From a virus, in the IMG/VR virus record IMGVR_UViG_3300045988_031857, positions 1-5,690 of that record: a stretch of DNA of 5,690 nucleotides; one strand, given 5' to 3'. The notes beneath the pieces were generated by a model. It ran no database searches. It was not told the origin of the DNA and saw only the letters and a list, made by a program, of their open reading frames with translations. The first letter of the stretch is position 1. Each line of letters starts with the position of its first letter. Both the position numbers and the translations under genes were made by a program. Shown one piece after another: positions 172 to 5,690 of the stretch.

Positions 172-290
172 TGGCATACCGCAGCACTGTAAAACCGAAG
201 ACCGACAAGAAGGTGTTCACCAACACGGCAAAAAAGACCAAAAAAATCAATGTCAATCCGAAGCCCAGCAGGGGAGGAATCCGACTGTGA
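171..290 (+). CDS. Small basic DNA-binding/packaging peptide (gokushovirus ORF8 type, the phiX174 protein J analogue), 39 aa: MAYRSTVKPKTDKKVFTNTAKKTKKINVNPKPSRGGIRL.
   Basis: GGAGG at 159-163 sits 7 nt before the ATG at 171. The peptide is highly basic and ends in the RGGxR(L/F) C-terminus. It also carries the K-x-F-x-x-TA-x-x-T-x-x-x-N pattern that I recall from Chlamydia-phage, SpV4 and gut gokushovirus ORF8 peptides. Not in the ORF track (under 60 aa). Confidence 0.85.
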   Translation: MAYRSTVKPKTDKKVFTNTAKKTKKINVNPKPSRGGIRL

Positions 291-487
291 AAAGCATCAG
301 GAACATGGCATGCTGCACACTGACAGTCAGACTGAGATACGACACAGCAGCCGAAATTGATGATCTGGCGGAAGAACTGGGATGCAGCGTGCCGGCAGCG
401 ACACGAAAAGCAATCGAATATGGGATGAGATATCACAAAAAAGATATCATCAACGAAGTTATGGAGGATAACAACAATGACCTTTGA
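287..487 (+). CDS. 66-aa protein with a ribbon-helix-helix (CopG/Arc/MetJ-like) sequence pattern; putative DNA-binding regulator.
   Basis: A GTG start at 287 lies exactly 9 nt after GGAGG (273-277), the same spacing seen for three other genes here. It overlaps the upstream stop (GTGA). TLTVRL looks like a beta-strand, DTAAEIDDLAEELG like helix A, and CSVPAATRKAIEYGMRYH like helix B (G-x-S ... IR-x-A pattern). An alternative ATG start lies at 305. The fold assignment is by eye only. Confidence 0.7.
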   Translation: MKSIRNMACCTLTVRLRYDTAAEIDDLAEELGCSVPAATRKAIEYGMRYHKKDIINEVMEDNNNDL

Positions 488-1218: not shown

Positions 1219-2909
1219 ACAGAAATAGCGAACAGCATTATAACCAGGTACCACACGCAGAAATCCGGCGAAGCCGTTTCAAAAGAGATTTTTCGCTGCT
1301 GACCACACTCAACGAAGGCGACCTAGTACCGATCTACGTGGACGAGGTATTGCCCGGCGATACCTTCAAGATCGATGTAAACGGCCTAGTGCGCATGGCC
1401 ACTCCGCTGTATCCAGTTATGGATAACTGTAACATGGATATTTTCTTCTTCTTCGTACCGTGCCGACTGCTCTGGGAACACTTCGTGAACATGATGGGCC
1501 AGAACGACAAAAGCTTCTGGGCCGAAAATGTAGAATACACCACACCAAGAGCAAAAGCACCTACAGGAGGATGGAAAACAGGATCAATCGCAGACTATAT
1601 GGGCATACCAACCGGAGTGGAAAACATCGAAGTAAACCGAATGCCCTTCAATGCCTATGCGAAGATCTGGAACGAGTGGTTCCGGGATGAAAATTTACAA
1701 CAGCCTGTAGACGTGTACACCGGAGACGAAACGCTAACCGAGACACCCGTACACGGACCACTAACAGAGATGGAAAAACCGGAAAGAGGAATAGACATCC
1801 TCAAAGTCTGCAAACACAAAGACTACTTCACCAGCAGTCTACCGCAGCCACAGAAAGGCCAGGCCGTTCCGCTGCCACTGACGGGAAATGCACCGTTAAG
1901 AGCTTACAACACACAAGAACTAAACCAACAAAAAATAGGAACAGGCTTTTTTAACAACGAATATAACACCGGAGTTGTAAACCACACAAGTATATCGTTC
2001 ACAAAACAAGGAACGAAATTCTCCGTAAACAAAAACAACAACGGAAACACAGCACCGACAAGCGAAGGGCAGTATCTCGAGACAATGAGCCAAGACGATG
2101 CAAATTTTCTTGACGCATGGTTAGGCACAGACCTCACAACAGTAACCGCAACCACGATCAACGAACTTCGCAACGCCATCGCAGTGCAGCACATCCTGGA
2201 ACGAGACGCACGAACCGGAACCAGGTACAAAGAAATCCTAAAAGGGGCCTGGGGTGTAACCTCACCGGACGCACGACTTGACCGAAGCGAATACATCGGC
2301 GGATACAGAATGCCGATAAACATAAATCAAGTCATTCAAACATCAAGCAGCAGCCAGATCAGCCCGCAGGGCAACACAGCAGCATACAGCATGACAACCA
2401 TGTCCAAACACATGTGCACATACAGCGCAACAGAGCACGGCTATGTCCTGGGCCTGTGCTGCGTGCGAGTAGATCACAGCTATCAGCAAGGATTGAGCAA
2501 ACTGTGGACGAGAAGCACACGGTTCAGCTATTATGACCCGATGCTTGCAAACCTGGGAGAACAGCCGGTGCTCAATCAGGAAATCTATGCACAGGGCAGC
2601 GAAAAAGACGAGGAGGTTTTCGGCTACCAGGAGGCCTGGGCCGATTACAGGTACCGCACAAACATGGTAACATCCGAAATGCGGAGCACCTACGCACAGA
2701 GCCTGGATGCCTGGCACTATGCAGACCACTACACGAGCCTGCCGACACTCTCAAGCGACTGGATCAAAGAAGGCAGCGAGAACATCGCCAGAACGCTGGC
2801 AGTTGAAGACACCAACCACAACTATCAGTTCATCTGCAACTTTTACTTTGACCAAACCTGGACACGGCCCATGCCGATCTACAGCGTGCCTGGCCTTGAT
2901 ACGATCTAA
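1215..2909 (+). CDS. VP1: Major capsid protein VP1 (phiX174 F-protein family), 564 aa.
   Basis: The N-terminus has the hallmark QVPHAEIRRSRF...TTLNEGDLVPIYVDEVLPGDTF. Downstream lie INELRNAIAVQHILERDARTGTRYKEIL and RLDRSEYIGG. Both size and gene order are typical of gokushovirus VP1. Confidence 0.97.
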   Translation: MNRNSEQHYNQVPHAEIRRSRFKRDFSLLTTLNEGDLVPIYVDEVLPGDTFKIDVNGLVRMATPLYPVMDNCNMDIFFFFVPCRLLWEHFVNMMGQNDKSFWAENVEYTTPRAKAPTGGWKTGSIADYMGIPTGVENIEVNRMPFNAYAKIWNEWFRDENLQQPVDVYTGDETLTETPVHGPLTEMEKPERGIDILKVCKHKDYFTSSLPQPQKGQAVPLPLTGNAPLRAYNTQELNQQKIGTGFFNNEYNTGVVNHTSISFTKQGTKFSVNKNNNGNTAPTSEGQYLETMSQDDANFLDAWLGTDLTTVTATTINELRNAIAVQHILERDARTGTRYKEILKGAWGVTSPDARLDRSEYIGGYRMPININQVIQTSSSSQISPQGNTAAYSMTTMSKHMCTYSATEHGYVLGLCCVRVDHSYQQGLSKLWTRSTRFSYYDPMLANLGEQPVLNQEIYAQGSEKDEEVFGYQEAWADYRYRTNMVTSEMRSTYAQSLDAWHYADHYTSLPTLSSDWIKEGSENIARTLAVEDTNHNYQFICNFYFDQTWTRPMPIYSVPGLDTI

Positions 2910-2920
2910 GGAGGTGCACA

Positions 2921-3895
2921 ATGGCAGGATGGGGAGCAATCGCTTTACAGCTACTGCCGAGCGTGGTAGGAGCCCTGGGAAACGTTGCAAGCAGCTATAT
3001 CAACTCGAAAGGGTCAAACAGCAGCGCAATGAACCAAAGCACCATGAACCAACAGGTTGGAAACACGACCATGTCAGGAAACATGAGCCAAGCAACCGGA
3101 ACCCAAGGCGGACAGGTAACGCAGGGTAACACGTCTGGAATATCAGACATCCTGGGAAAGGCTTTAACAGGCATCACGGGAAACAACTCAGGGGCAGCAG
3201 CCAACTTTAACGCCGGACAGGCACAGACCGCAAACAATCTCCAGAACGGACAGTGGGCACTAGGAAATCTAATAAACCTATGGTCAAACGCCAGGGCAAA
3301 CGAGCTGACAGCACAGAGCCAAGCTTCAGCAATGGCATTTAACCGGGAAGAGAGCCAAAAAAATCGAGACTGGCAACAGATGATGTCCAGCACAGCCTAC
3401 CAAAGAGGGGTAGAAGACCTAAAGAAAGCAGGTCTGAACCCAGCACTGGCAGCATACAACGGATTTGGTGCAAGCTCAGGCAGCGGAGGCCAGGCAGCTG
3501 TAGGAAACACAACCTTTAGCCACGCTCAAGCATCAGGAGTTCCAGCAGCACACACGGCCACCATGCAAGCGATGTACGACTACGGGAACAATACATCTCA
3601 GTTCCTGCAGAACGCCATGCAGGCGATCAACACAGCAAAGGAAACAAAAAACTGGGAAGAAGCCGGTTACATGCAAAGTATCATGCAGAATATCGGCTCA
3701 ACATCAGCAAAGACCGTTGGAAACATCGCACAGACCGCAAACAACACCTACAACAACGAACAGTCTGGCAGACAGACTAAAACGCCGACAACCGTAGAAG
3801 CAGGCAAAAAGCTCACAGACGCTGGAAACAATGCGAAAACGAAGGCAGCAGGTGCAGCCCTGTACGGTCTCGGAAAAGCAATGCGAAAATGGTAA
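2921..3895 (+). CDS. VP2: Minor capsid / DNA pilot protein VP2, 324 aa.
   Basis: GGAGG at 2910-2914 sits 6 nt before the ATG. It has a hydrophobic N-terminus (WGAIALQLLPSVVGALGNVA) and a body rich in N, Q, G, S, T and A. The conserved MMSSTAYQRGVEDLKKAGLNPALA motif is typical of gokushovirus VP2, and the gene lies directly after VP1. Confidence 0.9.
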   Translation: MAGWGAIALQLLPSVVGALGNVASSYINSKGSNSSAMNQSTMNQQVGNTTMSGNMSQATGTQGGQVTQGNTSGISDILGKALTGITGNNSGAAANFNAGQAQTANNLQNGQWALGNLINLWSNARANELTAQSQASAMAFNREESQKNRDWQQMMSSTAYQRGVEDLKKAGLNPALAAYNGFGASSGSGGQAAVGNTTFSHAQASGVPAAHTATMQAMYDYGNNTSQFLQNAMQAINTAKETKNWEEAGYMQSIMQNIGSTSAKTVGNIAQTANNTYNNEQSGRQTKTPTTVEAGKKLTDAGNNAKTKAAGAALYGLGKAMRKW

Positions 3896-3924
3896 TTGAC
3901 AGACACAAAAAGGAGGTGTATAAT
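3896..3924 (+). promoter_or_regulatory. Promoter P1: perfect sigma70 consensus, TTGACA (3896-3901), 17-nt spacer, TATAAT (3919-3924).
   Basis: Read directly from the sequence. It begins the base after the VP2 stop (TAA 3893-3895). The predicted start near 3931 lies upstream of the 3966 ORF and rep. Confidence 0.8.
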
Positions 3925-3965
3925 ATGGGTGTAAGAATCGCACACCTAAAGTAGGAGGGCATACC

Positions 3966-4133
3966 ATGAGAAGCCAAATGGCAAAAAGAATGAACATCAA
4001 CCTAACACAAAAACAAATCGAAGAACTAGAGTTCATCAAAACATGCAAACTGTATGATAAATACATCGACAGCGATATCATAAGGGATGCAATTGATGTA
4101 TACGCAGAAGCGCTAGGGTACAAAACAGCATGA
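3966..4133 (+). CDS. 55-aa protein with an RHH-like pattern (MRSQMAKRMNINLTQKQIEELEFIKTCKLYDKYIDSDIIRDAIDVYAEALGYKTA); putative small regulator upstream of rep.
   Basis: GGAGG at 3954-3958 sits 7 nt before the ATG at 3966, and this is the first ORF after promoter P1. RMNINLT looks like a beta-strand, QKQIEELEFIK like helix A and SDIIRDAIDVYAEAL like helix B. Not in the ORF track (under 60 aa). The fold call is by eye and weaker than for 287-487. Confidence 0.65.
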   Translation: MRSQMAKRMNINLTQKQIEELEFIKTCKLYDKYIDSDIIRDAIDVYAEALGYKTA

Positions 4134-4208
4134 GTTACGGCTACCGCCTCACTCAGGGAAGCAACATTTATCCATCACGAGAAGCGAGCAGCATCTAAAT
4201 TTTGTGTC

Positions 4209-4249
4209 AATGGGCCCCAATAAGATCAAGAAGGTTATTGGGGCCCATT
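4209..4249. repeat. Perfect inverted repeat / hairpin: AATGGGCCCCAATAA (4209-4223), an 11-nt loop GATCAAGAAGG, then TTATTGGGGCCCATT (4235-4249).
   Basis: The two 15-nt arms are exact reverse complements. The repeat ends 6 nt before the rep AGGAGG (4256-4261). No T-run follows it, so it is not a canonical intrinsic terminator. Confidence 0.9.
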
Positions 4250-4273
4250 CAGGGAAGGAGGAATGAAACATCT

Positions 4274-5377
4274 ATGCCATGTACGAGGCCGTTGGTTAGA
4301 ACCGTCATCAACAGACAAGAAAGAGTTGTCAGCCTGAAGGCATACTTATCAAAAACAGGCGAAAGGCTAGAGTTTGACGCAGATCAAAGACAGCAGAAGT
4401 GGAACGAACAGCGAGTTAAAAAGCTGCTCAAAGAACAGAATGCTCAGCTGCTACCATGCGGGCACTGTCCTGGATGCAAAATGGCAAACGCAGCATCATG
4501 GGCGAACCGAATGGAAATGGAGCTACCATACCATGAAAACGCCTGGTTTCTAACACTCACATATGATAACGAAAATGTCCCATATCGAGCGACATGGGAC
4601 ACACTGACAGGCGAAGTGATAACAGAAAACCTCAGTCTATGCTATGAGGACATGCAAAGATTCTGGAAACGATTGAGAAGGCACATAGAATACCACGAAA
4701 AAGGAAAAGGAAAGCTGATGTATTTCCAAGCTGGCGAATACGGCAGCCAAACACACAGACCACACTATCACGCAATCGTATACGATCTACCAATAAAACA
4801 GGAAGATTTAAAAGTTTACAAGAAAGAAAGAGGATTCACGTGCTATAACTGCGAATGGCTAGAAAAAATCTGGGGCATGGGACACGTCATCCTAGCACCA
4901 GCAGAATGGCGATCTATGGCATACACAGCAAGGTACACAACAAAAAAGATTTACGGAAAGGACGGCAAAAAATTTTATGAAGAACTAGGTATCATGCCGG
5001 AACAGTGCAATATGAGCAAAAAACCGGCAATCGGCGCACAATACTACTATGACCATGCAGCGGAAATCTACGAAAAAGATCAAATACAGCTAAAGAACGG
5101 AAAAATCTGTAAACCGCCAAGATACTTTGACAAGCTATTTGACATCGACCATGGAGCAAAGCCACTGACAGATGAAGAAGTGCAAAAAATCGAGGATATA
5201 ACAGAAAAAACCGAATCCGAAGAACTGAAAGCAATCAAACGAGAACGCCGAAGAATCGCAAACGACACTCTCTTTGCTCAGCTCAAGCAGACCGGCCTGA
5301 CCATGCAAGATTATTATAAACTGAAAGACGAAAAAATACAAGAACGAATGAGCAAATTGATTCGCACAGAGGTCTAG
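4274..5377 (+). CDS. VP4: Replication initiation protein VP4 (HUH rolling-circle endonuclease, phiX174 A-protein superfamily), 367 aa from the ATG at 4274.
   Basis: It carries PCGHCPGCKMANAASWANR (Cys cluster), FLTLTYD (motif 1), RPHYHAIVY (HUH, HYH at 4763-4771) and AYTARYTTKK (Y-x-x-x-Y-x-x-K, Tyr codons at 4922 and 4934). The track's start at 4202 is a TTG that reads through the hairpin. The ATG at 4274 has AGGAGG 12 nt upstream. The start is less certain than the gene identity. Confidence 0.93.
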   Translation: MPCTRPLVRTVINRQERVVSLKAYLSKTGERLEFDADQRQQKWNEQRVKKLLKEQNAQLLPCGHCPGCKMANAASWANRMEMELPYHENAWFLTLTYDNENVPYRATWDTLTGEVITENLSLCYEDMQRFWKRLRRHIEYHEKGKGKLMYFQAGEYGSQTHRPHYHAIVYDLPIKQEDLKVYKKERGFTCYNCEWLEKIWGMGHVILAPAEWRSMAYTARYTTKKIYGKDGKKFYEELGIMPEQCNMSKKPAIGAQYYYDHAAEIYEKDQIQLKNGKICKPPRYFDKLFDIDHGAKPLTDEEVQKIEDITEKTESEELKAIKRERRRIANDTLFAQLKQTGLTMQDYYKLKDEKIQERMSKLIRTEV

Positions 5378-5501: not shown

Positions 5502-5530
5502 TTGACAAGTGTATATTTTAGGTGTATAAT
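5502..5530 (+). promoter_or_regulatory. Promoter P2: perfect sigma70 consensus, TTGACA (5502-5507), 17-nt spacer, TATAAT (5525-5530), with an A/T-rich UP-like tract at 5484-5500.
   Basis: Read directly from the sequence. It shares the 12-mer AGGTGTATAATA (5520-5531) with P1 (3914-3925). Confidence 0.8.
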
Positions 5531-5536
5531 AGATGC

Positions 5537-5621
5537 AATCTGTGAAAAACTCAAAGAATACGAAACAAATAACTAAAATCAGCAAGGTGGACAAAATCCC
5601 ACCTTGTTTTTTTTTTTTTTT
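5537..5621 (+). ncRNA. Candidate short transcript (roughly 76-85 nt) from the P2 start to the intrinsic terminator. Alternatively it is a leader/attenuator for the downstream operon.
   Basis: This is defined only by P2 lying next to the terminator. The body (5537-5582) is A-rich with no obvious internal structure, and the 3' end is a hairpin plus U-tail. The boundaries are predicted, not observed. Confidence 0.3.
5583..5621 (+). terminator. Rho-independent terminator: stem CAAGGTGG (5583-5590) / CCACCTTG (5599-5606), 8-nt loop ACAAAATC, followed by T15 (5607-5621, equal to 2-16).
   Basis: The stem complementarity was checked base by base, and the T-run is an uninterrupted 15 T. It is the only hairpin-plus-T-tract I can find on the + strand, so it probably ends rep and whole-genome transcripts. 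It straddles the linearisation point. Confidence 0.85.
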
Positions 5622-5690
5622 GGTAAAATGGAACTATAAACAAAATTATCGAAAGGAGGTTGAAAAAAATGGTAACTATGCAGGACATCA
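5606..5690. repeat. Terminal redundancy (copy 2). It includes a truncated second copy of the 64-171 ORF start (ATG at 5669).
   Basis: Identical to 1-85 (see above). Confidence 0.95.

What the first reader, a model, noticed from the sequence alone, without database searches (positions are those of the whole stretch)
3896..5377. Consensus promoter -> 55-aa RHH-like protein -> hairpin -> HUH Rep: a copG-repB-like control cassette in a microvirus
Seen in the sequence: a perfect promoter (3896-3924) is followed by an SD-preceded 55-aa ORF with a beta-strand/helix/helix pattern (3966-4133). A 140-nt spacer containing a perfect 15-bp hairpin comes next, and then the rolling-circle Rep (4274-5377). 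Established knowledge: in rolling-circle plasmids of the pMV158 family, a single promoter drives copG (a 45-aa RHH repressor) followed by repB (an HUH initiator). CopG represses that promoter, and the copG-repB spacer is the target of translational control. Inference: this phage may autoregulate Rep dosage in the same way. That would be a copy-number or lifestyle control layer outside the canonical VP1-VP5 gokushovirus gene set, as far as I know. It could fit a carrier-state or low-level persistent infection better than a purely unregulated lytic cycle.
Basis: partly seen in the sequence, partly recalled or inferred. Interest (0 to 1): 0.72.

Follow-up and report, generated by a model that had tools for sequence, protein, structure and literature searches.

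The report
Microvirus repressor-Rep operon, inverted origin
A small gut ssDNA phage carries a conserved, previously unannotated CopG-like DNA-binding gene in front of its replication gene, and the hairpin between them looks like the phage's replication origin, flipped so that the strand it copies and packages is probably the non-coding one.

Summary
These are a 12/12 sigma-70 promoter (3896-3924), a 55-aa ORF with an SD (3966-4133), a perfect 15-bp hairpin (4209-4249) and the HUH Rep (4274-5377). All four are conserved in about 70 related microvirus genomes.

- **The ORF is a real gene.** dN/dS is 0.03-0.2. Its profile aligns in register with CopG and other RHH proteins. It is unannotated in GenBank relatives and confined to this clade.
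- **Autoregulation is plausible but untested.** GTGTA repeats 13 bp apart overlap the -10 and the transcription start of P1. The same repeats occur in the paralogous promoter P2.
- **The hairpin is not a translational-control element.** The same module occurs in RHH-less microviruses. It consists of a covarying Watson-Crick stem, a CTTCTTGAT loop matching the phiX174 nick site CAACTTG^AT, and a TGACAC flank. In those genomes it lies on the coding strand; here it is reverse-complemented.
- **Orientation tracks strand composition.** Across 60 genomes there is no overlap. Motif on the coding strand goes with T-rich third codon positions; motif on the opposite strand goes with T-poor ones.

The hairpin is therefore most likely the replication origin, and this clade probably nicks and packages the antisense strand. 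The lifestyle inference has no support.

The parts
3896..3924 (+). Promoter P1: -35 TTGACA (3896-3901), 17-nt spacer, -10 TATAAT (3919-3924)
   Evidence: 12/12 consensus match. Conserved about 70 nt upstream of the RHH ATG in relatives whose RHH is only about 40% identical.
3915..3946 (+). Candidate operator: direct repeats GGTGTA at 3915-3920 (overlapping the -10) and 3928-3933 (around the expected +1), 13 bp apart, plus inverted ACACC at 3942-3946
   Evidence: The sequence GGTGTATAWTATGRGTGTAnnAATCRYACACY is more conserved than the protein. GGTGTA occurs 7 times against 1.6 expected, and 3 of the 4 plus-strand copies sit at P1 or P2. Binding is inferred, not shown.
3953..3958 (+). Shine-Dalgarno AGGAGG for the 55-aa gene
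   Evidence: Read directly from the sequence; 7 nt before the ATG at 3966.
3966..4133 (+). 55-aa RHH-like (CopG/Arc-class) DNA-binding protein gene
   Evidence: Homologues. dN/dS 0.03-0.2. hhalign against CopG gives 79% probability in register. RHH_1 is hit by 14 of 33 members below threshold. aCcr1, NikR and ORF56 are hit weakly. The AF2 monomer has helices at 15-26 and 36-49 after an extended N-terminus, pLDDT 68.
4202..4209 (-). Conserved flank TTGTGTCA on the + strand, which reads TGACACAA on the - strand, immediately 3' of the hairpin on that strand. Putative Rep recognition element.
   Evidence: Invariant in 33 diverse relatives. The same (G/C)TGACAC follows the hairpin on the coding strand in RHH-less microviruses.
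4209..4249 (-). Origin-like hairpin: arms 4209-4223 and 4235-4249, loop 4224-4234. The - strand loop reads CCTTCTTGATC. The putative nick CTTG^AT is at 4225-4230, between the - strand bases opposite 4227 and 4226.
   Evidence: Perfect inverted repeat. 14 of 19 pairs change compensatorily, 94% of cells are paired, and there is no wobble in the core. The loop TCAAGA is invariant. The motif equals the phiX174 origin CAACTTG^AT, whose RefSeq rep_origin is at 4306. The hairpin sits 64-70 nt upstream of the Rep ATG in all relatives.
4253..4261 (+). Shine-Dalgarno-like GGAAGGAGG for rep, 3 nt after the hairpin and 12 nt before the ATG
   Evidence: Read from the sequence and seen in the spacer alignment.
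4274..5377 (+). Rep (VP4), an HUH rolling-circle initiator. HUH codons at 4763-4771; catalytic tyrosines Y217 (4922-4924) and Y221 (4934-4936).
   Evidence: Pfam PF23343 at 2e-15 and phrog_942 at 3e-96. Invariant columns in the Rep alignment. Conserved M-x-C-x-R-P start.
5502..5530 (+). Promoter P2, a paralogue of P1: TTGACA-AGTGTAT-N6-GGTGTATAAT, with GTGTA repeats at 5509 and 5522, 13 bp apart
   Evidence: 12/12 consensus match. The architecture is conserved in many relatives, which add a third GTGTA 13 bp further on.
5581..5621 (+). Intrinsic terminator (stem 5581-5608 plus T15), the likely end of the P1 RHH-rep transcript
   Evidence: Terminator scan. Hairpin plus T-run is conserved in relatives.

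Best explanation
The region is the replication module of a gut gokushovirus-like microvirus. A strong, conserved sigma-70 promoter (P1) transcribes a two-gene operon. The first gene encodes a 55-aa ribbon-helix-helix protein of the CopG/Arc class, and the second encodes the HUH Rep.

The RHH protein most likely binds the GTGTA repeats, spaced 13 bp apart, that overlap the -10 element and the transcription start of P1. The same repeats occur in the sister promoter P2. Binding there would repress its own synthesis and Rep's, which is the logic of CopG. This step is inferred.

The perfect hairpin in the spacer is not a translational operator. It is the phage's strand-specific replication origin. 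It has a GC-rich stem that presents the loop CTTCTTGAT, carrying the phiX174-type nick site CTTG^AT, followed by a TGACAC recognition flank. The module is shared by a wide range of microviruses.

In this clade the module is reverse-complemented relative to the genes. Rep would then nick the non-coding strand, and rolling-circle synthesis would displace and package the antisense strand. The mirrored base composition of the coding strand fits this. P1 transcripts must read through the origin to reach rep.
For: Cassette conservation:
- Promoter, RHH ORF, hairpin and Rep are present in all relatives examined.
- The ORF is under purifying selection.

RHH assignment:
- all point to RHH families.
- Secondary-structure order is compatible.

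Operator candidates:
-.
- The 5' arm of the small inverted repeat lies at or before the expected +1. That favours a DNA operator over an mRNA hairpin (sequence).

Origin:
- Stem covariation is strong, with 14 of 19 pairs compensatory, 0 of 500 shuffles reaching the observed score, and no wobble pairs in the core.
- The loop and the 5' flank are invariant.
- The identical module, with CTTCTTGAT on the coding strand followed by TGACACC, lies between VP2 and rep in six GenBank microviruses that lack the RHH gene.
- Chp2 and SpV4 carry CTTGAT/CTTGTT-loop hairpins on the coding strand.
- The phiX174 RefSeq origin is CAACTTG^ATATT.

Strand flip:
- In whole genomes retrieved with a Rep profile, 46 with the motif on the coding strand have third-position (T-A)/(T+A) from -0.05 to +0.72, median +0.50.
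- The 14 with the motif on the other strand have -0.45 to -0.27, median -0.42. The ranges do not overlap.
- Opposite-orientation lineages occur at three or more places in a rough Rep tree, next to same-orientation sisters with the opposite skew.
- ssDNA phages are known to over-use NNT codons because of C-to-T pressure on the single strand (PMC3278643).
- The only plus-strand CTTGAT in the window (2895-2900) varies synonymously among relatives, so it is not an origin.
Against: - No experiment exists. DNA binding by the RHH protein, nicking by Rep and virion strand polarity are all inferred.
- The window protein itself has no Pfam hit. The AF2 model has only moderate confidence (pLDDT 68) and Foldseek found nothing.
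- GTGTA repeats could be intrinsic promoter features or Rep iterons, since TGACAC and TACACC are similar.
- The hairpin could be the complementary-strand origin rather than the nick site, as proposed for other microvirus hairpins in PMC9865509.
- phiMH2K is an exception. It has a CTTGTT-loop hairpin on the coding strand but a T-poor coding strand.
- Opposite-orientation lineages are few and mostly come from one pig-gut data set. The Rep tree is a crude neighbour-joining tree.
- Skew could reflect host codon usage.
- Microviridae are described as positive-sense (my own knowledge).
Confidence: 0.6

Rival explanations
1. This is a pMV158-like copG-repB copy-control cassette in which the spacer hairpin acts at the RNA level, by translational control or attenuation, to set Rep dosage, enabling a carrier-state lifestyle.
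For: - The gene order and single strong promoter match pMV158 logic.
- The hairpin is necessarily transcribed and ends 3 nt before the rep SD.
- The SD-to-ATG spacing for rep is long (12 nt), hinting at weak translation.
Against: - The hairpin module is present in microviruses without the RHH gene and lies downstream of rep in the L137/L163 clade.
- There are no G-U pairs in the stem core despite 14 covarying pairs.
- The loop matches a DNA nick motif, and its orientation tracks DNA strand skew.
- The SD is not sequestered in the predicted fold, and the spacer's overall z-score is only -1.8.
- No antisense promoter, Rfam family or U-tract was found.
- Nothing bears on lifestyle.
Confidence: 0.1
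2. The hairpin is the complementary-strand (single-strand) origin. It would be a structure on the packaged ssDNA that host primase, PriA or RNA polymerase recognises to start second-strand synthesis, rather than the Rep nick site.
For: - phiX174, G4 and RC-plasmid single-strand origins are hairpins with conserved loops (my own knowledge).
- PMC9865509 proposes this for conserved-loop, covarying-stem hairpins next to rep in small microviruses.
- Strict Watson-Crick pairing fits a DNA hairpin.
Against: - The loop motif equals the phiX174 nick core.
- A conserved duplex-type flank (TGACAC) and constant proximity to rep fit initiator recognition.
- No second origin candidate was found in the genome.
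- Under this rival the strand inference still holds, because the loop must be on the packaged strand.
Confidence: 0.2
3. The 55-aa RHH protein is mainly a replication accessory factor rather than a transcriptional repressor. It would bind near the origin or promoters and recruit or titrate a host protein.
For: - 15 of 97 distinct family sequences carry an acidic C-terminal tip (EEEDLPF, DDLPF, DDDDLPF, DDDDLPY). These sit on linkers of different length and sequence and resemble the SSB C-terminal hexapeptide DDDIPF.
- SSB-Ct as an interaction hub is described in PMC5872125.
- The gene sits directly beside the origin.
Against: - The window protein and most family members lack the tail.
- The best-conserved candidate DNA targets overlap promoter elements.
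- RHH proteins of this size are typically repressors (my own knowledge).
Confidence: 0.2
4. The hairpin orientation and the A-rich coding strand are unrelated. The skew reflects host codon usage or shared ancestry, and the coding strand is packaged as in all known Microviridae. The hairpin would then work in an orientation-independent, double-stranded form.
For: - phiMH2K combines a T-poor coding strand with a coding-strand CTTGTT hairpin.
- Opposite-orientation lineages are few and come mostly from one sample.
- GC3 skew separates the groups less cleanly than AT3 skew.
Against: - The AT3 skew ranges of the 46 and 14 genomes do not overlap.
- Sister lineages differ in both orientation and skew: L240/L244 against L239/L241, and L231 against L272.
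- HUH nicking and single-strand origins are inherently strand-specific (my own knowledge).
Confidence: 0.3

Closest known systems
pMV158 copG-repB copy-control cassette (streptococcal rolling-circle plasmid)
   Same: One promoter drives a roughly 45-55-aa RHH protein followed by an HUH initiator. The RHH family here aligns in register with CopG. The replication origin with a nick-site hairpin lies close by.
   Different: - The Rep is phiX174-A/VP4-type (PF23343), not the RepB family.
- No antisense RNA was detected.
- The origin lies between the RHH gene and rep instead of upstream of the promoter.
- The candidate operator is a set of 13-bp-spaced GTGTA direct repeats over the -10 and +1. In pMV158 it is a pseudosymmetric element at the -35 (my own knowledge).
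phiX174 viral-strand origin (gene A protein nick site CAACTTG^ATATTAATAAC)
   Same: The loop carries CTTG^AT. The Rep is a distant homologue of gene A protein with HUH and two tyrosines.
   Different: The phiX174 origin lies inside gene A with no hairpin, on the coding (viral) strand. Here it sits in the loop of an intergenic perfect hairpin with a TGACAC flank, on the non-coding strand.
Conserved-loop hairpins next to rep in roodoodoo- and reekeekeeviruses (PMC9865509)
   Same: Intergenic hairpin adjacent to rep, with identical loops and compensatory stem substitutions across divergent genomes.
   Different: Those authors suggested a minus-strand origin and left the function open. No nick motif, orientation or skew analysis was reported in the passages read.
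CRESS-DNA virus and geminivirus origins (stem-loop with a nonanucleotide, next to rep)
   Same: An HUH Rep gene lies beside a stem-loop whose loop carries the nick site, with a flanking recognition sequence.
   Different: The Rep lineage, loop motif and host domain all differ. Those viruses are often ambisense, so origin orientation relative to the genes is not an issue for them.
Phage and plasmid RHH repressors (P22 Arc/Mnt, pSM19035 omega, pRN1 ORF56, archaeal aCcr1)
   Same: Small beta-alpha-alpha proteins that bind short repeated sites overlapping promoters. Family members give weak hits to ORF56, NikR and aCcr1.
   Different: No member passes a curated threshold. The operator and oligomeric state are unknown. 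Some family members carry an SSB-Ct-like tail, which I do not know from those repressors.

Membership tests
Ribbon-helix-helix (CopG/Arc/MetJ) superfamily, Pfam RHH_1 PF01402 | Profile match above the curated threshold | tested here: not met
   The window protein has no Pfam hit at E<=1. 14 of 33 family members hit RHH_1, but the best E-value is 9e-4, below the 20.5-bit gathering score.
Ribbon-helix-helix (CopG/Arc/MetJ) superfamily, Pfam RHH_1 PF01402 | Remote homology in register across strand, helix A and helix B, including the S/T N-cap of helix B | tested here: met
   hhalign of the family profile against CopG gives 79% probability over 40 columns, pairing KRININLT with KRLTITLS and SDIIRDAI with SKSAMISVAL. 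PDB profile hits are TTHA0139, ParD and CopG, all full-length. NCBIfam gives aCcr1, NikR and ORF56.
Ribbon-helix-helix (CopG/Arc/MetJ) superfamily, Pfam RHH_1 PF01402 | Beta-alpha-alpha fold that dimerises through an antiparallel beta-ribbon | tested here: inconclusive
   The AF2 monomer has an extended N-terminus, then helices 15-26 and 36-49, pLDDT 68. The natural tandem homologue P0044 is predicted as E-H-H-E-H-H, but pLDDT is only 54. Foldseek found no significant match. No multimer prediction was available.
Ribbon-helix-helix (CopG/Arc/MetJ) superfamily, Pfam RHH_1 PF01402 | Sequence-specific binding to repeated operator sites | not testable with these tools
   Only candidate sites were found, namely the GTGTA repeats.
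pMV158-type copG-repB control cassette | A single promoter co-transcribes the RHH gene and rep | tested here: met
   P1 is conserved. No promoter-like site (9/12 or better) and no terminator lie in 4134-4273. Gene order is invariant. Co-transcription itself is inferred.
pMV158-type copG-repB control cassette | Antisense RNA that targets the rep translation-initiation region | tested here: not met
   No minus-strand promoter or terminator pair lies in the spacer. No Rfam match at E<=1.
pMV158-type copG-repB control cassette | Initiator of the RepB (Rep_2) family | tested here: not met
   The Rep hits PF23343 REP_ORF2-G2P and phrog_942, the microvirus initiator families.
phiX174-type (superfamily I HUH) viral-strand origin | Nick-site core CTTG^AT | tested here: met
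   CTTGAT lies in the hairpin loop at 4225-4230 on the minus strand. It is invariant as TCTTGA in 33 relatives. The phiX174 reference is confirmed.
phiX174-type (superfamily I HUH) viral-strand origin | The motif lies on the coding strand, which is the packaged strand | tested here: not met
   The motif is on the non-coding strand in the window and in all clade members.
phiX174-type (superfamily I HUH) viral-strand origin | Cleavage by the cognate Rep | not testable with these tools
   This needs a biochemical assay.
Gokushovirus-like Microviridae | VP1 (Phage_F), VP3 (Chlamy_scaf), VP5 (Phage_ORF5), VP2 pilot and VP4 Rep on one strand of a 4.5-6 kb circle | tested here: met
   Pfam and PHROG hits. 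Circular genome of 5605 nt.

The most novel reading that the evidence does not exclude
This clade, and at least two other lineages of gokushovirus-like microviruses, have flipped their replication origin. Rep would then nick, displace and package the strand complementary to all genes, making these negative-sense Microviridae whose replication runs head-on against transcription. The clade-specific RHH proteins would control the strong P1 and P2 promoters in that context. In some relatives the RHH carries an SSB-C-terminus mimic that would tie it to host replication factors.
Probability: 0.5. Interest if true: 0.85.

Novelty: new variant of a known kind. Interest (0 to 1): 0.72.

Why it matters
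Microviridae are among the most abundant gut phages, yet outside phiX174 their origins and regulation are essentially undescribed.

- **A common origin module.** The analysis identifies a module shared by many gokushovirus-like genomes: a hairpin with a CTTG^AT loop plus a TGACAC flank. It gives a simple sequence rule for predicting which strand is replicated and packaged.
- **Possible negative-sense microviruses.** If the inverted-origin lineages do package the antisense strand, the textbook description of the family as positive-sense is incomplete. It would also explain why these phages break the NNT codon bias of ssDNA phages.
- **Consequences for virome work.** Strand-aware virome protocols and annotation would need adjusting.
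- **A dedicated regulator.** The unannotated RHH gene shows that some microviruses carry a transcription or replication regulator beyond the canonical VP1-VP5 set.

Tried and rejected
- **Composition of a single genome as a polarity clue.** Rejected at first because phiMH2K is also A-rich on its coding strand. The question was settled only by the 60-genome comparison.
- **Plus-strand CTTGATAC at 2895-2901 (end of VP1) as the origin.** Rejected because the codons vary synonymously among relatives.
- **Terminator-associated CCACCTTGTTTT (5597-5608) as an origin candidate.** Not pursued. The motif match is weaker, and the element behaves as a terminator plus T-run conserved in that role.
- **A 5'-mRNA hairpin formed by GGTGT...ACACC downstream of P1.** Considered because G..C, G..T and A..T combinations occur and A..C never does. 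Judged less likely because the 5' arm lies at or before the expected transcription start.
- **Structure-based confirmation of the RHH fold.** Foldseek against PDB and BFVD gave nothing significant. Single-sequence AF2 of the natural tandem homologue had low confidence.
- **Link between the RHH gene and origin inversion.** Rejected. Other inverted-origin lineages lack the family.
- **Homology between the 55-aa and 66-aa RHH-like proteins.** No direct similarity was found.
- **Rfam scan.** No hits.
- **Literature on gokushovirus origins or microvirus RHH proteins.** Nothing relevant was found in the searchable library.
Full report
**What the window is.** Bases 1-85 repeat at 5606-5690, so the window is a circular genome of 5605 nt. 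All genes are on the + strand:
- two tiny ORFs (64-171 and 171-290; the second is basic and J-like, phrog_10695)
- a 66-aa ORF (287-487)
- VP5 (477-734), VP3 scaffold (727-1218), VP1 (1215-2909), VP2 pilot (2921-3895)
- the 55-aa ORF (3966-4133) and Rep/VP4 (4274-5377).

This is a gokushovirus-like microvirus. Its nearest GenBank records are pig-faeces Microviridae.

**Checking the observation.**
- TTGACA-17-TATAAT at 3896-3924 scores 12/12. The only other perfect site is 5502-5530.
- AGGAGG lies 7 nt before the ATG at 3966.
- The hairpin arms 4209-4223 and 4235-4249 are 15 bp, 100% complementary, with an 11-nt loop.
- The spacer is 140 nt.
- Rep starts at 4274 with a conserved M-x-C-x-R-P N-terminus. 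It carries HUH at residues 164-166 and tyrosines 217 and 221.

Promoter-like matches as a class are not enriched (9 against 6.0 expected). The case for P1 therefore rests on perfection plus conservation.

**The 55-aa ORF is a real, conserved, unannotated gene.**
- A word-indexed search found 23 homologues at 73-98% identity on 5.1-5.9-kb contigs.
- An exhaustive profile search found 30 cluster representatives.
- The family signature is M[KR]SQxxKRININLTxxE..L..I...SDIIRDAI..Y.
- Pairwise dN/dS is 0.03-0.2.
- The synteny VP2, ORF, Rep is kept in every relative examined. That includes all 41 IMG/VR loci whose Rep is at least 48% identical.
- In four GenBank records the ORF is present but not annotated.
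- Full-text searches found no paper linking Microviridae with RHH or CopG.

**Is it an RHH protein?** The window protein alone has no Pfam hit. The family evidence is nevertheless consistent.
- RHH_1 is the only recurrent Pfam family, hit by 14 of 33 members, all below threshold.
- NCBIfam hits are aCcr1 (9 of 33), NikR and ORF56, all RHH proteins.
- The family profile hits TTHA0139, ParD and CopG in the PDB over the full domain.
- hhalign against CopG gives 79% probability in register.
- The AF2 monomer has an extended N-terminus followed by helices 15-26 and 36-49, pLDDT 68.
- A natural tandem homologue is predicted as strand-helix-helix twice, but with low confidence.
- Foldseek was uninformative.

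I accept an RHH fold at about 0.8.

**Promoter and candidate operator.** The sequence GGTGTATAWT-ATG-RGTGTA-nnAATCRY-ACACY, from the -10 to about +20, is more conserved than the protein across relatives.
- It contains two GTGTA direct repeats 13 bp apart (3916 and 3929) and an inverted ACACC (3942-3946).
- P2 (5502-5530) has the same design: TTGACA-AGTGTAT-N6-GGTGTATAAT.
- In relatives a third GTGTA lies another 13 bp downstream of P2. In some, a 5'-UTR homologous to that of P1 follows.
- GGTGTA occurs 7 times in the window against 1.6 expected, and three of the four plus-strand copies are at these promoters.
- The 5' arm of the small inverted repeat lies at or before the expected transcription start. 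A DNA operator is therefore more likely than an mRNA hairpin.

The nearly invariant beta-strand (KRININLT) fits a conserved DNA target. Autorepression of P1, and control of P2, by the RHH protein is thus a reasonable inference, though still only an inference. Rep or the second RHH-like protein could equally be the binder.

**The hairpin is an origin-like DNA module, not a translational operator.** In 33 distinct relatives the stem covaries strongly.
- 14 of 19 pairs show compensatory changes and 94% of cells are paired.
- None of 500 shuffles reaches the observed covariation score.
- No G-U pairs occur in the core.
- The loop TCAAGA and the 5' flank TTGTGTCA are invariant.
- The hairpin sits 64-70 nt upstream of the Rep ATG. 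Its distance from the RHH stop codon varies between 26 and 101 nt.

Six GenBank microviruses with Rep only 30-39% identical, and with no RHH gene, have a perfect hairpin between VP2 and rep. Its coding-strand loop reads CTTCTTGAT, CCCCTTGATAT or CTCTTGA, and it is followed by (G/C)TGACACC. The window element is the exact reverse complement of that module.

The loop motif equals the phiX174 viral-strand origin, CAACTTG^ATATT, annotated at 4306 in RefSeq. Chp2 and SpV4 also carry CTTGAT/CTTGTT-loop hairpins on the coding strand. In the L137/L163 clade the inverted module lies downstream of rep, which rules out a rep-leader role.

A published study saw comparable hairpins beside rep in tiny microviruses and left their function open (PMC9865509).

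**Orientation tracks strand composition.** A Rep-profile scan returned 80 microvirus loci, and the 77 of at most 7 kb were analysed, oriented with rep on the + strand.
- A CTTG-loop hairpin with a perfect stem of at least 9 bp was found in 60 of them.
- In 46 the motif is on the coding strand. Their third-codon-position (T-A)/(T+A) ranges from -0.05 to +0.72, median +0.50.
- In 14 the motif is on the non-coding strand. Their skew ranges from -0.45 to -0.27, median -0.42.
- The two ranges do not overlap.

The window itself has T3 = 0.11 and A3 = 0.31-0.36.

Opposite-orientation lineages appear at three or more places in a rough Rep tree, next to same-orientation sisters with the opposite skew. 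Examples are L240/L244 against L239/L241, and L231 against L272.

ssDNA phages are known to over-use NNT codons because of C-to-T pressure on the single strand (PMC3278643). The simplest reading is that the motif-bearing strand is the one that is nicked, displaced and packaged. In this clade that strand is the antisense strand.

Three caveats apply:
- phiMH2K is an exception.
- The inverted lineages are few and come mostly from one sample.
- No virion data exist.

**How it most likely works.**
- P1 fires on the double-stranded replicative form and produces one mRNA for RHH and Rep. It reads through the origin hairpin and ends at the terminator at 5581-5621 (inferred).
- The RHH protein accumulates and binds the GTGTA repeats across the -10 and +1 of P1 and P2, limiting Rep synthesis (inferred, about 0.5).
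- Rep recognises TGACAC plus the extruded hairpin and nicks CTTG^AT on the minus strand (about 0.6 for the exact site; about 0.8 for a strand-specific replication element).
- Rolling-circle synthesis then displaces the minus strand, and the replication fork moves head-on against transcription. This could be one reason for tight promoter control, which is speculation.

**Comparison with known systems.** The cassette works like pMV158 copG-repB in layout and probably in logic, but it is not a member of that family.
- The Rep is phiX-A/VP4-type.
- No antisense RNA was found.
- The origin lies inside the operon.

The origin resembles that of phiX174 in its nick core. It differs in being a hairpin-loop element and in its strand.

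**Verdict.** It is a widely shared microvirus origin module whose inversion, together with mirrored codon skew, points to antisense-strand packaging in this clade.

Noticed in passing
window 287-487 (+): A second small RHH-like protein (66 aa) lies between the J-like gene and VP5. hhalign against CopG gives 88% probability, and the PDB profile hits pRN1 ORF56 (2k9i, E=0.004) and CopG. It is conserved in the clade. It shows no direct similarity to the 55-aa family.
   Followed up: partly
homologues of window 3966-4133, e.g. L026:3001-3213, L061, P0024, P0030, P0048: 15 of 97 distinct family sequences end in an acidic tip (EEEDLPF, DDLPF, DDDDLPF, DDDDLPY). The tips sit on linkers of varied length and resemble the SSB C-terminal interaction hexapeptide DDDIPF/DDDLPF. 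The window protein lacks the tip.
   Followed up: partly
window 5502-5629 (and 1-24): In this genome P2 is followed after about 50 nt by a strong terminator (5581-5608 plus T15), with no ORF between them. In relatives P2 drives a 47-64-aa gene, so the window and L007 seem to have lost it.
   Followed up: partly
window 5607-5629 (= 2-24): The T-run varies from 8 to 20 T among relatives. It is always followed by G[GAC]TA[AG]AAT, so that TGGTAAAAT reads as an extended -10. This may be the promoter for the structural genes, with a homopolymer of variable length directly upstream.
   Followed up: no
window 4134-4200: The upstream part of the spacer holds a conserved CAACA-N3-5-ATCCAT motif. In several relatives it also holds a separate GC-rich hairpin of variable sequence. 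In a few relatives a frameshift extends the RHH ORF through this stretch (...SYGYRLTQGSNICP).
   Followed up: no
window 4262-4273: TGAAACATCYATG, immediately before the Rep ATG, is conserved at nucleotide level. The SD-to-ATG distance is unusually long at 12-14 nt.
   Followed up: no
L039 (phiMH2K, AF306496) 3296-3335: This cultured gokushovirus has a CTACTTGTT-loop hairpin on the coding strand but an A-rich, T-poor coding strand. It is the only exception to the orientation-skew rule.
   Followed up: partly
L137, L151, L163 (IMG/VR 3300045988 contigs): A separate clade has rep abutting VP2, and the inverted origin hairpin lies immediately downstream of rep.
   Followed up: partly
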